DNA from: Styela clava
Taxonomy: Eukaryota
DNA: 64,000 bases
NCBI RefSeq assembly: GCF_964204865.1
Contig: NC_135256.1
Location: 15,190,001-15,254,000 of the forward strand
Direction: 5' to 3'
The position numbers are program-made. Shown piece after piece: positions 30,001 through 60,000 of this stretch. Position 1 is the first letter of the stretch. Every line of letters begins with the position of its first letter.

Positions 30001-33000
30001 GATCTATTACTGAAGCATCATTAAGCTTCAAAGTATCTTTAGTTGAACCACTAGAGAGATATTTGCCACTCTGATCAACTTTGCTTGAGCTACTCAGGCT
30101 GTTGCTTTGAGAATAATTGTTTGAGTAATGTGGATAATTATCTGCATGACTCGAATGCCTAGATGGTAAGTAAGATTCTGGTTCACTTGTATGCTTGTTG
30201 TATTTCATTGGGCTGCCATTATATTGCGAAGCGAACATTTTTGAATAAGCGTTAGCTGTATCTGCATTCATGTAACTTCTAGTAATGTCTCGATCTTGAT
30301 AACCTTGGTGCAATGGTTGGAGTCCAGCAGCAGCTTGACTAAGTCCCAAATGACCGGGGGATGGATGATAATTCTTTGGAAAAGGTGTTCTCCTGTCCAC
30401 AGCATAAGATGCAGCTTCTCTAGTAGGATCGAAAGCAGCGTATGGATTCAGATAGGATGAAAGCATATCATAAGGGGCATATGACCCAGAAAAAGATGGT
30501 GCCATCTGTTGCTGTAGAAGGCTAGAGTTTGGCAGTATTGATGAAAAGGGAGATATCCTGGGATCTATCGCATGCTGACGTAGTCTTGCTTGTGTTGAGT
30601 ACTGTAAATAAAACACAAATAATTTTTACTCAAGACCAATCATTGTGCACAATGTAGAAAACTGACACACTTTGACACATATACAACAACTTCTTTCAGC
30701 AGAGGCCAGAGATGCTAATTAAAAGGATGCAACTAGCTCAAATATGCAAAAATCCACCAAATGTGATCCATTTGGAGCTATTTCAAAATCACATTCCTCA
30801 GATTGTTTTATAATTTTAAAATCTCTGCACGTTGTAATATCAAAAATATTTGAGCAGAATAAAAAAAACGCTGCTCCCGAAGTATGCGAACCAAGATGGC
30901 GGACATCGGAACGTAACATGGGTAACAGGTTAGGGTTAGGCGATAATTTTTTTCCAATTTTCCTTATTTTAGTCCTATTATCAGTTCGAAGACTAGCCAA
31001 GAGCCTCCCGTAGTATTTATACCTAAAATTATGGCCTAACCCTAACCTAGTACACATATTACATTCCGATGTCCGCCATCTTGGTTCGCATACTTCAGGA
31101 GCCCCAAAAAAACAATAACAGTGGACAATTGGTACAAACCGGCCCCATATCTGGATATCCCGTTGCAAGATGATCATTGGCCTTTGGAGTGAAGTTTCTG
31201 TAACAAAAACAAACAATATTGACAATTTTCACTATAACATATTAAAAAAAGTGGTATAATGTTTTAGAGTTGAGAAGAAAAACTCTTCGCTGCTGCAATA
31301 TTACAATGTTTAATTGTAAACTTTATGCATAAGTATGAATTTGAGAGGGGCTGAATTCAATGAATGCATGGTTATATCCATCCCCCAGTTTAAAATGTAA
31401 AAACCATGTTCTTTTTGCTTTATCATTATTATTATGATCACTGTATTATTCAGGCTGATGAAATGGTACTCCCGTGGCATGTGTACCAGGTTAGGGTTAG
31501 GGCATAATTTTATTCGGATTTCCATTATTTTAGTTCTATAACGAGTTCGGGGACTGTCTGTGTTAGCCAAGTGAATAAACCCCCTGCCCATAGGTTTCAG
31601 TCGCTTTGCATAACTTGATGTAATATAGGCGAACAAAATTAGTTACCTCCATATTGGTTAGTACACATACTTCTGCTGGAGCAGCGATGAAATAATATAC
31701 TCTTATCTGTGACCAGTCAATTTCGAAATTAAAAAATACTTGGAGTTTAACTACCACATACGGTATGTGACATATTGCGTATTTCTGAAATCATTAATAT
31801 ACATGTATTTATTCTCACAAGGCTTACCTCAGAGAGGATTCGGATACATAGTTATGCAAATTTCTGGTTGCATCGTATTCTCCATTCTTGGGCGTGGAGT
31901 TCAGGGGAGTTGAGTTTTCTCTCCGCTAAAAAATAATAACAACTCAATATGAAACAAAATGAATTCAAACACCTAATATAATAATTTAGTCGAAGAAGGA
32001 AATAAGTCAATCGAAATGGAATTACCATCAACTTATGATGATGAAGATTGGGAAAAAGCAGTAAAAATTGTCAATAACAAACAATTTTGATATTTAAAAA
32101 ATTAATTCAAAAAATAAAAAATTCATAATTGAAAAAATATATCTCATATCTGTTTTTCGATCAAGATAGTCAATGAATTTAATACTGGGATTTATCATAT
32201 GCATATGTGATGAGTCCAATATATATTCAACTATAATCTCGGGATCAAAAAAATCAGAATTATCAGCAAAATTTATAAAAATGATTAAAACCTAGTGTCG
32301 ATGGAAATTGCTTCGAACGCAATTTATATATGATCTATTTTTCGTTGTTCTAGACGTGCGGTGTGTGCACCGCAGCTGACGACTACCGTTATATTTGTTG
32401 TTTCGAAAGTTATTTAAGAAAAGCGTGTCGTGTCGTTCTTATCGTGTAATCTTATGTTATGTTTTTTGTATAACTTTAAAGTTGTAAGTTCGGAAATGAG
32501 GAAACTGAATACTGAAACGAGGTAACCTCATGTTAGTGAATTTGATACGAAATAGAGCCAGTTCTTAAACATTTGAAAACCATCGATCTTTACAATGTTT
32601 ATAGGGTTCTCATTTGAAGTCAATTTTGAAAACAATACCGATATTCGGAGTCAGACGAACGTGTTTTGCGCAACCCAATACGTGAACCGTTAGGAGCCGC
32701 TAGAGAGATATCATCAAACGAGAGAACAAAGGAAAAGAAAAAAGGAGATAAGAGAAACTTGCGACAAGAAATGACGTCATCGGAATTAGTCTACAACCTA
32801 CCACAGCAGCCGTGGTGGTATTGCGGATGGCAGAAGGAAGCAAGGCTGGGGAAGCTGTCAGTTGTTGTCCTATGTTGTCATCGTTGACTGTCAGGCTTCT
32901 TCCGGGAACTCGAAGGACAGAGAAGGCGAAGCATAGGGTTCTTGTTCCTAACCTGGCGCTTACCGTAATTAGGGGTAAATACAATATGGTTTACAGCTTT

Positions 33001-57000: not shown

Positions 57001-60000
57001 TCCCACAAAACACCAAAGCCACATCTTCACGCTAATATTATTTGACTCGTTGAGCCACTGAGACTTAAATACCGCCGAAAATCTTCATAACTTGCGTGAA
57101 ACAAGATCATAGGTAACAAAACGGACAGAAAGGAATACGCAAACAATATCACGACTGAGTGTAGAAGTAGATATTAAACGTCAGCAAAAAGTCATACCGC
57201 AACACATTGCATTGATTATGACACGATGCGCTAACAATATTTAGCATCCTTTTCCCTTCCTTTGGCTACGTAACCGAAGTACCGACGCTTCGCCAGTTGC
57301 TTATTTTTTCAAATAACAAAGTACCCTTACTCAAAGTATATGTCGACGGCTACGATAGTTTCACATGTGCCTGTCAGCGCATTGTTCAAACTTTATTTTC
57401 CAGTCACAAAAATTAGTAATAAATCCAAATTTTGCGAGTTCATCTACAACCAATTAACGCATGATGGTAAACAATACAAATTCTCAATCTTCATTCTGGC
57501 GCTCAGGTGGACCAAACATATCATGACTTCTGCTGTTTAAACTCGGCCGAAACAAAATATGAGCCTGCACTTGTTTCCCGGACAGAGTGCGTCCAATCTA
57601 TGTAAATATGCGACAAAGTGCCAACCGCATTCGTAATTTATTTGACGAAGACACATATCGCCCCTGATCCGAACCGAGACAAAAACCGCACGCCTTTGCA
57701 GTTTATAATCGAAGCAATTTACGACAACTCGGGAGCATTCGAACATTTACCACTAGTATAAAGTAAATTTATAAGTAGGTACTTTTTAACGGCAATCAAT
57801 TCCTTTTCTAATTAAATCCGTAATTAGCACACTTGACTGTAAAAAATCTAACATAAATAAACTCATTTGCCGTGGTATTTTCGGCAAATATCGCGAGGTC
57901 GAACCTCACAATGTTCTTTAAAAATTTTAATACGGAGGCGACCATCGAGTCTGTTTTTAGTTTTGAGAGACTAGTGTTCGATGACGAATACGTCATGCAG
58001 CGAGAAGCTTGAGCATCGAGAGGCAGGCGTGCGCGTTCGTATTAAACGACAAACAGTGCATGACGAATGTGAAAGAATGAACAGAATAGCGCCGGCGGTG
58101 GGACCATATGAGCGTTTGTGCGCTATCAGAGAGAATAGAAGAAAATAAAATTACTCGCAAATAGTGAGCCGGAGGAATGAGCAAATGAGCAGGTGTGATA
58201 GAAATTCAGAGCATTTGCATAGGCGATGCTTACGCGTTTCTCAATGTTTGGGAAAGCGTTGATTTTCGATGCTGAGCGTGTGCGCTCTTGAACTTATGTC
58301 ATTTAAAATCCCTGGTATTAATTAGATAGAGGACCAACTTTAATAAAAGCATAAACGCGGGGTAGCGATTTCACAGCTAATTCGATTCGACAGATAGTCA
58401 AAAGCGCGAAGGTGATGGATGCACTGTCCTGCATTACAAACCATTTCAGTCCAAGTAGATATGGTAGCGCATTACACAAAAGCTTTCGTCAAGTAATGTG
58501 CAAGAAACAAACGTAAAAAATATGACGTCGCAATAATCGTGCGGTAACCCTGCAAAATGATTTATTTATACATAAGTTGGGATTGTCATCTTTCTAAGAG
58601 CAGAATCCACCGCAATTTTTGATAAAAAACGACGACCAAATTTTGCGCTTTAAGTAGACAACGCCAAATTTGGGAGATGTGACAATATCGAAACACGCAA
58701 TGAAATAAGACAAGGTATATCATTTGGACTGAAAGCTATGTCAACATGACACAGATAGATCGACTCTTTAAACAGTCTTATATTTCTTTGATTCATTTGC
58801 AGGATTGAACGTTGTGAAATTTCAAGTACAAAAAATCTAGAAAATGCAAGTTATCAGTTAGAGCAAAACAGAGCTAGTGAGCGATGTCAAACCAGAGCCA
58901 TTACATCTCTGGTCTAACCATAGACTCCTTCTCGATGGAACCATTATACACGTCTTTTGATTGTGTATTAATTTATTGAACACGAAACGTACATATGGAT
59001 CGTTTTGTTATTATGTTGTTGTTAGGATTCTTTTATCATTCTTGTTCTTACGAAAAAATCGCATTTCTCATTACCTACTGGACCAATTGTTTTTAGTTTT
59101 TCAGAGGTTAAAGATTGTATTCTTGCTACTAGAAGGCTTTTATTTTTGTTTATTTCAAAATCTGTGTGGCCTCGACGGGGATTCGTTTTTTTTCTGTGAG
59201 ATGAGGTCATGGAAATTAAAAATTGCGCTCCTTGTCAGGCTACTGTGATAGATTGCATACCCGCGCCATTTCGTGTCCATATATTTGAGCATCGCTCTCT
59301 TGTTGGACACGAACTGGACCCATGAATCGTTTTGTTATTAATATTCTGTTGTTGTTCTTCTTATCGTCATGAAAAAATTCTTTTCTTTTTATCTACTGGA
59401 CCAATTGCCTTAAAATTTTCAGTGGTTAAAGATTGTATTTTCGCTAGAAGGCTATTTCCCCGTGTCCATATATTTTACCATAGCTTTCTTGGTATTATGT
59501 TGTTGTACTTCTTTATCGTCTTGGGAGACATCGACCCTATTCCGCCATCCGTAACTTGACACCCATCAACCGTATTTCGTCATCCCTATTTTTAAATCAC
59601 CAATATGACATTTATGCTATCACCACTATAGATGATTTCGACTGATATTTTATCTGTTTAATCCTTGAATTTCTACTTGATAACAAAGTTCCGTACCTGC
59701 TTCAACATATTGTCGAACCCATTATTGTGCGGCTTCCACAAAGCTGTAGGTCGTAGAGTTTTCTCAAATTATCGCCGCATTTGTATACTCTCCTCATAGG
59801 GTCATTTTCAGGCCTTGAAATTTTCCTAAGTGAGGACGATTTGGTTAACATGTGGTAGATGGATTATAATAAAAAATTATTCGTTGACTCGATATTCAGG
59901 CGCGTAGATCACCATAGAGTAAGATGCCTAATGAGAGAGAGTAACAGTAACGGTAGTGCAGACAACAGGATATGTCTGAAAACATCTGCGTCGATTAGCC

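What the first reader, a model, noticed from the sequence alone, without database searches (positions are those of the whole stretch)
31140..58200. BCOR may start ~22-26 kb further upstream, nesting the intronless PTPN1/2 gene antisense inside a BCOR intron
Seen: no recognisable downstream domain exons for the orphan exon 54118-54506 were found in 36-54 kb. Its phase-2 donor joins in frame to BCOR exon 31140-31197. An in-frame route to exon 31828-31925 also exists via small candidate exons 47228-47260 (2-2), 44243-44294 (2-0) and 40493-40531 (0-0, HPYFTHMGPTGAK). The exon has uORFs in its leader, and a promoter-like GC-rich patch with a minus-strand donor lies at ~57750-58200. Known: vertebrate BCOR has alternative distant promoters in a large CpG-rich domain. 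Inference: a two-promoter BCOR with alternative N-termini, with PTPN1/2 as a nested gene sharing the proximal promoter.
Basis: inference. Interest (0 to 1): 0.65.

Follow-up and report, generated by a model that had tools for sequence, protein, structure and literature searches.

The report
Sea-squirt BCOR-like gene's distant first exon

Summary
The window is Styela clava. NCBI's model XP_039250687.2 (LOC120328307 isoform X1, 1925 aa) starts with the 91 residues of the "orphan" exon 54118-54506(-). It maps exon by exon to the minus strand from 54392 to 15559 in 20 coding exons.

The route is 54118 -> 35816-35750 -> 31925-31828 -> 31197-31140 -> 30601. The direct join to 31197 and the three mini-exons occur in 0 of 5 public isoforms. 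The mini-exons are no better than 4215 chance AG..GT candidates in the 18.3 kb intron.

The PTPN2-like CDS (33600-34931,+; XP_039250690.1) lies antisense inside the 3824-nt intron 2. Isoform X2 starts at an ATG in exon 2, so alternative N-termini are annotated. Two promoters and a shared proximal promoter are not shown.

BCOR-family membership rests on a collinear ANK-linker-PUFD match.

The exon-1 peptide has no detectable relatives. No RNA data were available here, so the junctions remain NCBI predictions.

Verdict: the core inference is right but already annotated, and the routes are wrong. Interest is low.

The parts
54118..54506 (-). First coding exon of the BCOR-like gene, isoform X1. 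It has a 114-nt leader with 3 uATGs, an in-frame TGA at 54405-54407 and an ATG at 54390-54392. It encodes 91 codons plus 2 nt. The donor GT is at 54117-54116 and the acceptor AG at 54507-54508, so at least one further 5' exon is implied.
   Evidence: sequence; residues 1-92 of XP_039250687.2 match exactly; codon-usage log-odds of +5.7 bits, against 128 stop-free 91-codon background windows (mean -19.9, max -0.2).
35817..54117 (-). Intron 1, 18,301 nt. No Pfam-recognisable ORF was found in it. It is not CpG-depleted from about 36.25 kb upward.
35750..35816 (-). Exon 2, 67 nt, entering in phase 2 and leaving in phase 0. It encodes (M)LTEVIKTNRDMNLVNMGLDEYK and contains the ATG of isoform X2 at 35785-35783.
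   Evidence: isoform starts
31926..35749 (-). Intron 2, 3824 nt. This is the host intron of the PTPN2-like gene.
33600..34931 (+). Single-exon CDS of the nested PTPN2-like tyrosine phosphatase (443 aa plus stop). An acceptor AG lies at 33586-33587, just upstream of the ATG. AATAAA-type signals occur at about 35073, 35331 and 35594.
   Evidence: Y_phosphatase, E 3.7e-74. (identical sequence clusters with XP_039250690.1). (top 8 PDB sequences are PTPN2, then PTPN1, E about 1e-104)..
32200..33000 (.). CpG-rich island (o/e 1.0-1.8, GC up to 0.45) inside the otherwise CpG-depleted gene body. It is the likely promoter or first non-coding exon of the PTPN2-like gene (inference).
31828..31925 (-). Exon 3, 98 nt, entering in phase 0 and leaving in phase 2. 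Its reading frame is open and has no in-frame ATG.
31140..31197 (-). Exon 4, 58 nt, entering in phase 2 and leaving in phase 0.
15556..30601 (-). The remaining 16 coding exons, down to the TAA stop. They include the 1.7 kb exon 5, the C-terminal ankyrin repeats (residues 1516-1611) and the PUFD-like region (residues about 1679-1790).
57600..58400 (.). Moderately GC- and CpG-rich patch upstream of exon 1. It is a candidate, unproven, for the distal promoter or a non-coding first exon.

Best explanation
The window carries the Styela clava BCOR/BCORL1-family gene LOC120328307 on the minus strand, spanning at least 15.5-54.5 kb.

Its long isoform (X1) begins translation in exon 54118-54506. It then splices across an 18.3 kb intron to a 67-nt exon at 35750-35816, across a 3.8 kb intron to exon 31828-31925, and on to 31140-31197 and the large exon starting at 30601.

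The PTPN2-like phosphatase gene, with its own CpG-rich 5' patch at 32.2-33.0 kb, sits on the opposite strand wholly inside the 3.8 kb intron 2.

A shorter isoform (X2) lacks the exon-1 coding part and starts at the ATG in exon 2.

Shown here: exact exon-by-exon agreement of the window with the public protein models, GT..AG ends, phases, and family membership of both genes.

Inferred: that the junctions are used in vivo. They are NCBI predictions, reproduced in two model versions (.1 and .2). Also inferred is that X1 and X2 come from different promoters.
For: Identity of the locus.
- the 581-aa translation of 28856-30601(-) is 100% identical to XP_039250687.2. It was the only hit among 7999 scored candidates.
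- 3 of 5 cluster members start with the exon-1 peptide and 2 of 5 start at MNLVNMG.

Exon map.
- exact matching places 1924 of 1925 residues in 20 collinear minus-strand segments. The one residue left over sits on a split codon.
- by my reading of the printed flanks, all 19 introns can be given GT..AG ends.
- exon 2 has a ttttttaacAG acceptor and a GTATGT donor, with phases that fit both neighbours.
- exon-1 codon usage scores above all 128 stop-free background windows of equal length.

Nested gene.
- the ORF is an annotated PTPN2-like protein.

BCOR family.
- after three ascidian orthologues, the full-coverage named hits are fish BCOR/BCORL1 (E about 1e-39, 94-95% of residues 1500-1800).
- one collinear BLASTP alignment, residues 1478-1784 against Tetraodon BCOR 1391-1719, E 1e-48.
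- the top 4 of 7 PDB hits for the post-ankyrin part are BCORL1/BCOR PUFD chains.
- a fish PUFD-only profile hits the same place in 4 of 4 ascidian proteins.
Against: - No transcript evidence could be seen here. XP_ records are computed models.
- The exon-1 peptide has no detectable relative. phmmer against 1.84 billion representatives found only itself and one repetitive protein that I judged spurious.
- In local alignments to the N-termini of the Ciona, Phallusia and Clavelina orthologues, 868-949 of 1000 shuffles reach the score. A profile of those N-termini finds nothing in P0001's first 170 residues or in 1581 ORF pieces from 30.6-64 kb (best E = 5).
- The leader has 3 uATGs.
- Intron 1 is not CpG-depleted, unlike every other intron of the gene. 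If Styela behaves like Ciona (passages in PMC3827831), this argues that the distal start is not the germline or ubiquitous one.
- Exon 1's codon score per codon (0.063) sits near the bottom of the range of the known exons (0.05-0.70). The 128 background windows overlap and come from few ORFs.
- Pfam's PUFD model does not reach E<=0.01 on the Styela protein.
Confidence: 0.8

Rival explanations
1. Only the short form is real. The gene starts near 36-37 kb and translation begins at the ATG in exon 2 (X2). The exon at 54 kb would then be a rarely used or wrongly attached piece: a separate non-coding transcript, or a modelling artefact fusing an upstream fragment.
For: - A sharp CpG o/e step at about 36.25-36.3 kb, about 450 nt upstream of exon 2. 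Below it o/e is 0.25-0.87, and above it 1.0-1.8 all the way to 64 kb.
- In Ciona, methylated domains cover introns and end near the 5' end of the transcription unit (PMC3827831 passages).
- The exon-1 peptide is unconserved.
- The leader has 3 uATGs.
Against: - The same N-terminus appears in both model versions.1 and .2.
- Exon 1 codon usage is coding-like relative to background.
- The donor and acceptor are strong and the phases fit.
- The CpG-depleted stretch 33.0-36.25 kb could equally be the gene body of the phosphatase gene, so the step does not locate a BCOR start.
- The CpG footprint reports germline methylation only.
Confidence: 0.12
2. These are a direct splice from 54117 to 31197, or a chain through 47228-47260, 44243-44294 and 40493-40531 into 31925.
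For: The frames and AG/GT ends are as stated (and my reading).
Against: - The junction motif and all three peptides are absent from 5 of 5 public isoforms.
- There are 4215 equally open AG..GT candidates in the intron.
- Per-codon codon-usage scores of the three are 0.295, -0.333 and 0.073, on only 10-17 codons each.
- These routes would skip exon 2, which is present in all 5 isoforms.
Confidence: 0.03
3. In addition to the annotated starts, the CpG-rich patch at 32.2-33.0 kb acts as a bidirectional promoter. It would drive the phosphatase gene rightward and a short BCOR-like transcript leftward, with translation starting at M164 in exon 4. This is not exclusive of the best explanation.
For: The CpG island lies between exon 3 and the phosphatase ATG, and the CpG-depleted BCOR gene body begins just left of it.
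Against: - Exon 3 begins at a strong acceptor.
- In 5 of 5 isoforms exon 3 is preceded by exon-2 coding sequence.
- The ATG at 31885 in exon 3 opens only an 18-codon ORF (my reading).
- No public model starts there.
Confidence: 0.1

Closest known systems
Vertebrate BCOR / BCORL1 (PRC1.1 corepressors). Compared here with fish proteins such as Tetraodon BCOR H3CM94 (P0013) and with PDB PUFD chains 4hpm, 2n1l, 8hcu and 4hpl.
   Same: - The C-terminal ankyrin repeats, linker and PUFD-like region are collinear (36% identity over 337 columns, E 1e-48).
- The top 4 PDB hits to the post-ankyrin part are all PUFD chains.
- Both are long, low-complexity proteins of about 1.7-2 thousand residues.
   Different: - No Pfam PF15808 (BCOR non-ankyrin region) and no PF16553 at E<=0.01.
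- The PUFD-only profile score is low (10.3 bits).
- The N-terminal two-thirds show no significant similarity; the other HSPs have E>=0.56.
- PCGF1 or BCL6 binding was not tested.
Ascidian orthologues: Ciona intestinalis LOC100178568 (P0009), Phallusia mammillata A0A6F9DGA.. (P0010) and Clavelina lepadiformis LOC143448375 (P0011).
   Same: The C-terminal 300 residues are 47-57% identical (E 1e-73 to 1e-86). All four share the weak PUFD match at the same position.
   Different: - All three start with MAD... and carry an extra N-terminal ankyrin repeat (Pfam Ank at 189-219, 191-223 and 216-247).
- The Styela models have neither feature.
- Nothing like them is found in 30.6-64 kb of the window.
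Nested opposite-strand genes in host introns. Textbook examples recalled from memory, not from any call, are EVI2A/EVI2B/OMG in an NF1 intron and F8A in F8 intron 22.
   Same: A complete gene with its own promoter-like CpG patch lies antisense within one intron of a larger host gene.
   Different: The nested gene fills most of a short (3.8 kb) intron. No expression relationship between host and guest was tested.

Membership tests
BCOR/BCORL1 family | C-terminal ankyrin repeat block | tested here: met
   Ank_2 at residues 1516-1605, E 2.4e-15. Exon-wise result.
BCOR/BCORL1 family | PUFD (PCGF Ub-like fold discriminator) directly after the ankyrin-linker, by homology | tested here: met
   the top 4 of 7 PDB hits are BCORL1/BCOR PUFD chains, E 0.011-0.055, covering chain residues 4-115 of 122; a collinear alignment runs through Tetraodon's Pfam PUFD (1607-1720); a PUFD-only profile from 6 fish BCOR proteins hits Styela 1679-1747 at E 3e-5 with Z=1, though only 10.3 bits. 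My anchor motif dropped 4 BCORL1 proteins of the 10 fetched.
BCOR/BCORL1 family | Pfam PF16553 (PUFD) at its curated score | tested here: not met
   no PF16553 at E<=0.01 on P0001; none exon by exon at E<=10. The Phallusia orthologue reaches 21.1 bits against a cut-off of 29.5.
BCOR/BCORL1 family | Best named full-coverage relatives outside the tunicates are BCOR/BCORL1 | tested here: met
   67 proteins at E<=0.001. After 3 ascidian proteins, the hits covering 79-96% of the query are fish BCOR/BCORL1 carrying PF16553. The rows with about 30% coverage are generic ankyrin proteins.
BCOR/BCORL1 family | BCOR non-ankyrin region (PF15808) / BCL6-binding region | tested here: not met
   absent from P0001. 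It is present in Tetraodon BCOR. It is probably a vertebrate feature (inference).
BCOR/BCORL1 family | Binding of PCGF1 RAWUL and assembly into PRC1.1 | not tested
   No complex prediction was run, and no PCGF1 of S. clava was at hand.
PTPN1/PTPN2 subfamily (nested gene) | Classical PTP catalytic domain, with PTPN2/PTPN1 as nearest solved relatives | tested here: met
   PF00102, E 3.7e-74; the 8 best distinct PDB sequences are PTPN2 (E 1.2e-104 to 5.7e-103), followed by PTPN1. NCBI's name is PTPN2-like.
Nested gene in a host intron | The guest gene lies wholly inside one host intron, on the opposite strand | tested here: met
   The CDS 33600-34931(+) lies inside intron 31926-35749 of the minus-strand model. 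This depends on NCBI's exon 2-exon 3 junction being real.
Alternative-promoter gene with alternative N-termini | Protein isoforms with different N-termini | tested here: met
   X1 and X3 start at MSSTPP (3 of 5 sequences). X2 starts at MNLVNMG (2 of 5).
Alternative-promoter gene with alternative N-termini | Two separate transcription start sites | not testable with these tools
   No mRNA, CAGE or RNA-seq data were available. X2 could equally arise by skipping exon 1.

The most novel reading that the evidence does not exclude
Styela's BCOR orthologue has exchanged its ancestral N-terminus for a lineage-specific exon recruited 18 kb upstream. The ancestral form, MAD... plus an N-terminal ankyrin repeat, is kept in Ciona, Phallusia and Clavelina. 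The new exon lies inside a domain of at least 28 kb that is not CpG-depleted and was presumably never germline-methylated. The sharp methylation-footprint boundary at about 36.25 kb would then mark the constitutive (X2) start. The distal X1 start would be a regulated, tissue- or stage-specific promoter. The antisense PTPN2-like gene sits between them and is open to transcriptional interference.
Probability: 0.2. Interest if true: 0.35.

Novelty: already known. Interest (0 to 1): 0.15.

Why it matters
It matters little beyond annotation.

What this check adds:
- The 'uncharacterized' locus is the ascidian BCOR/BCORL1-family gene.
- The correct linking exon is identified.
- The Styela N-terminus is unrelated to that of three other ascidians.
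- A sharp CpG-depletion boundary falls just upstream of exon 2.

The last two points could interest people studying promoter use and gene-body methylation in tunicates, but they need RNA and methylation data.

Tried and rejected
- Relatives of the 91-aa exon-1 peptide: Pfam found none at E<=10. phmmer against 1.84 billion representatives found only self plus P0006, a 1587-aa repetitive protein at 27% identity with six stretches, which I judged spurious on sight.
- Word-indexed search with residues 1620-1800 alone found only self among 112 candidates. Widening the region to 1500-1800 was needed.
- The atlas search on residues 1500-1800 returned only generic ankyrin clusters and was uninformative for PUFD.
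- The whole-protein PDB search was swamped by ankyrin and DARPin chains.
- Lost N-terminal ankyrin exons: tblastn of the three ascidian N-termini hit only the C-terminal ankyrin exon at 20816-20953. The profile search found nothing (best E = 5 among 1582 targets).
- Possible relic similarity of the exon-2 peptide to Ciona residues 161-182: 32 of 1000 shuffles reach the score in one of 12 comparisons, which is not significant after correction.
- Rfam found 0 families at gathering score in the whole window.
- Polymorphism between the .1 and .2 models: 2.2% substitutions in exon 1 against 2.0% overall, which tells nothing.
- A single change-point fit of CpG density landed at 32.3 kb because of the island and was not useful.

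
Full report
**Origin of the window.** The translation of the large minus-strand ORF 28856-30601 is 100% identical to NCBI protein XP_039250687.2, 'uncharacterized protein LOC120328307 isoform X1 [Styela clava]', 1925 aa. It was the only hit among 7999 scored candidates. Its 90% cluster has 5 members: X1 (.2, 1925 aa.1, 1932 aa), X2 (.2, 1823 aa.1, 1830 aa) and X3 (.1, 1703 aa). The window has no N, and I did not take it for human.

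**The observation.**
- On the minus strand the exon starts after an AG at 54507-54508. It has a 114-nt leader, an in-frame TGA at 54405-54407 and an ATG at 54390-54392. It encodes 91 codons plus two bases and ends at a GTGAGT donor at 54117.
- The leader holds three uATGs. Intron ATG density predicts 2.25.
- 0 of 85 ORFs of at least 60 aa in 35.9-64 kb, both strands, hit Pfam at E<=0.001. This confirms that no domain exon lies between 36 and 54 kb.
- The three mini-exons have the stated ends, frames and phases.
- The patch at 57.6-58.4 kb is moderately GC- and CpG-rich and holds a GT at 57750.
- The in-frame 'routes' are not above chance. The 18,301-nt intron contains 4215 AG..GT stretches of 25-150 nt that are open in a frame. 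Among them, 497 are of phase 2-0, and each of these alone would link donor 54117 to acceptor 31925.

**What is really there.**
- The public X1 protein begins with exactly the 91 residues of the orphan exon. It continues M-LTEVIKTNRDMNLVNMGLDEYK-RRENSTPLN....
- tblastn and exact matching place 1924 of 1925 residues in 20 collinear minus-strand segments from 54392 to 15559. The remaining residue sits on a split codon.
- The 22-residue piece is a 67-nt exon at 35750-35816, with acceptor ttttttaacAG and donor GTATGT. It enters in phase 2 and leaves in phase 0. It therefore fits both the orphan donor (AT|G gives Met92) and exon 31925.
- By my reading of the flanks printed, all 19 introns can be given GT..AG ends.

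**The joined step.** Exon peptides were searched one by one. Where a full-length protein was needed I used the stored public models.

**The nested gene.**
- ORF 33600-34931(+) is, residue for residue, in the same cluster as XP_039250690.1, 'tyrosine-protein phosphatase non-receptor type 2-like'.
- It has a full PTP domain (E 3.7e-74). Its 8 best distinct PDB sequences are PTPN2, followed by PTPN1.
- It lies antisense inside intron 2 (31926-35749, 3824 nt), not merely somewhere in a 22 kb intron.
- A pyrimidine tract and an AG at 33586-33587, 12 nt before the ATG, suggest a 5'UTR intron. A CpG-rich patch at 32.2-33.0 kb is the likely promoter or first exon (inference). 'Intronless' is therefore shown for the CDS only.

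**Is the host gene BCOR?**
- Pfam sees only ankyrin repeats at 1516-1611.
- A search with residues 1500-1800 finds three ascidian orthologues (Ciona, Phallusia, Clavelina; E 1e-73 to 1e-86). After them come fish BCOR and BCORL1 proteins carrying PF16553, covering 79-96% of the query at E about 1e-39 and weaker.
- BLASTP against Tetraodon BCOR gives one collinear alignment, 1478-1784 against 1391-1719, E 1e-48. It runs through that protein's Pfam PUFD at 1607-1720.
- The post-ankyrin 218 residues alone hit, as the top 4 of 7 PDB sequences, the PUFD chains of BCORL1 and BCOR (E 0.011-0.055).
- A PUFD-only profile from 6 fish BCOR proteins hits the same position in 4 of 4 ascidian proteins. For Styela this is 1679-1747, E 3e-5 for a single target, and only 10.3 bits. 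My anchor motif dropped 4 BCORL1 proteins of the 10 fetched.
- I file the gene as a BCOR/BCORL1-family member with a divergent PUFD. Pfam's own PUFD threshold is not met, and PF15808 is absent.

**How firm is the distal start?**
- For it: the same N-terminus appears in both model versions, the splice signals are good and the phases fit. The exon-1 codon-usage log-odds of +5.7 bits exceeds all 128 stop-free 91-codon background windows (mean -19.9, sd 9.9, max -0.2). Those windows overlap and come from few ORFs.
- Against it, or neutral: I saw no RNA evidence. The peptide has no detectable relative. Its local alignments to the first 420 residues of the three ascidian orthologues are matched by 868-949 of 1000 shuffles. 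A profile of their first 300 residues finds nothing in P0001's first 170 residues or in 1581 ORF pieces from 30.6-64 kb.
- Those three orthologues start MAD... and carry an N-terminal ankyrin repeat that Styela lacks. The in-frame TGA before the Styela ATG excludes a hidden N-terminal extension.

**Alternative starts.**
- X2 begins at Met103 of X1, the ATG at 35785-35783 in exon 2. An alternative N-terminus is therefore annotated.
- Whether it comes from a second promoter or from skipping exon 1 cannot be told here.
- No public isoform begins at exon 3. That exon has a strong acceptor and no in-frame ATG, so a promoter shared with the phosphatase gene has no support.

**A CpG-depletion boundary (seen in passing).**
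- CpG o/e is 0.25-0.87 from 1 to 36 kb, except for the 32-33 kb island (1.32). It is 0.93-1.81 in 27 of the 28 one-kb windows from 36 to 64 kb; window 53-54 kb reads 0.69. The step lies at about 36.25-36.3 kb.
- Passages of Suzuki et al. 2013 (PMC3827831) say that in Ciona methylation covers the exons and introns of broadly expressed genes and falls at the 5' end. They also say that a promoter inserted in a methylated host intron stays unmethylated from about -0.8 to +1 kb.
- If Styela behaves alike (inference), the island fits the nested gene's promoter.
- Intron 1 was then never germline-methylated. That would fit a constitutive start near 36-37 kb plus a regulated distal one.
- The 33-36.25 kb depleted stretch could equally be the phosphatase gene's own body, so the step does not by itself locate a BCOR start.

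**Literature.**
- 'LOC120328307' gave 0 papers.
- 'BCOR' with 'Ciona' gave 5 papers and 'BCOR' with 'ascidian' gave 3. None has either term in its title or abstract, and I saw the listings only. I found no printed account of a tunicate BCOR gene structure in that library.
- The S. clava genome papers were seen as listings only.

**Not checked.** I had no RNA or methylation data and no eukaryotic genome collection for synteny. The collections viral contigs and metagenome contigs and paper supplements were closed.

**Verdict.** Its splice routes and its shared-promoter idea are not supported. Interest is low.

Noticed in passing
window 1-64000; step at about 36250-36300; island at 32200-33000: CpG o/e is 0.25-0.87 across 1-36 kb, covering several genes including the BCOR-like gene body. 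It is about 1.0-1.8 across 36-64 kb, with a sharp step about 450 nt upstream of exon 2 and a CpG island at the nested gene's 5' side. This looks like a germline methylation footprint of the kind described for Ciona (PMC3827831 passages).
   Followed up: partly
P0009, P0010, P0011 (Ciona, Phallusia, Clavelina orthologues) against window 30600-64000: The three other ascidian orthologues start with MAD... and have an N-terminal ankyrin repeat (Pfam Ank at 189-219, 191-223 and 216-247). The Styela models and the 33 kb upstream of exon 4 show nothing like it.
   Followed up: partly
window 25693-25923 (-), inside the 975-nt coding exon: There are eight tandem copies of a 21-nt unit encoding the 7-residue I/T-P/L-V/I-T-D-K/N-T repeat. 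The .1 and .2 protein models differ in length by 7 residues (1932 against 1925 aa). This would fit one repeat unit more or less, but I did not locate the gap, so the link is a guess.
   Followed up: partly
window 30912-30994 and 31473-31555 (introns 3 and 4 of the BCOR-like gene); similar translated motif at 8044-8286: A dispersed repeat (80% identity over 83 nt) has a telomere-like GGTTAGGGTTAGG core. The copy at 30.9-31.1 kb sits in an inverted-repeat context by eye. It is possibly a MITE-like element.
   Followed up: no
window 60916-61494 (+) and 62325-62738 (-): The 193-aa ORF looks like a FAM200/GTF2IRD2-type protein, which I recall as hAT-transposase-derived. The atlas feature score is 0.97 with 197 of 256 shared features, and 13 hits carry that family. 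Pfam found nothing at E<=0.001. The nearby minus-strand ORF has only a weak zinc-finger hit (E 0.067). These are probably transposon remnants upstream of the gene.
   Followed up: partly
window 33560-33602 and 34850-34931 (+): The phosphatase CDS is preceded by a pyrimidine tract and an AG 12 nt before the ATG, so a 5'UTR intron is likely. It ends in a hydrophobic tail (...IVGGTVLLTVCTVTFYAFYR) that, from memory, recalls the membrane anchor of PTP1B. No transmembrane predictor was run.
   Followed up: no
window 1284-2996 (+) and 9782-10705 (-): Two further long single ORFs flank the locus. One is a GTPase with MMR_HSR1 (E 2e-17), LSG1-like by my recollection. The other is a RING-variant (RINGv, E 5e-12) membrane protein, MARCH-like by recollection.
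   Followed up: no
window 19372-19599 (-): Isoform X3 of the older annotation (P0005, 1703 aa) ends in a read-through of the intron after exon 19492-19578, which truncates the protein before the PUFD-like region.
   Followed up: no
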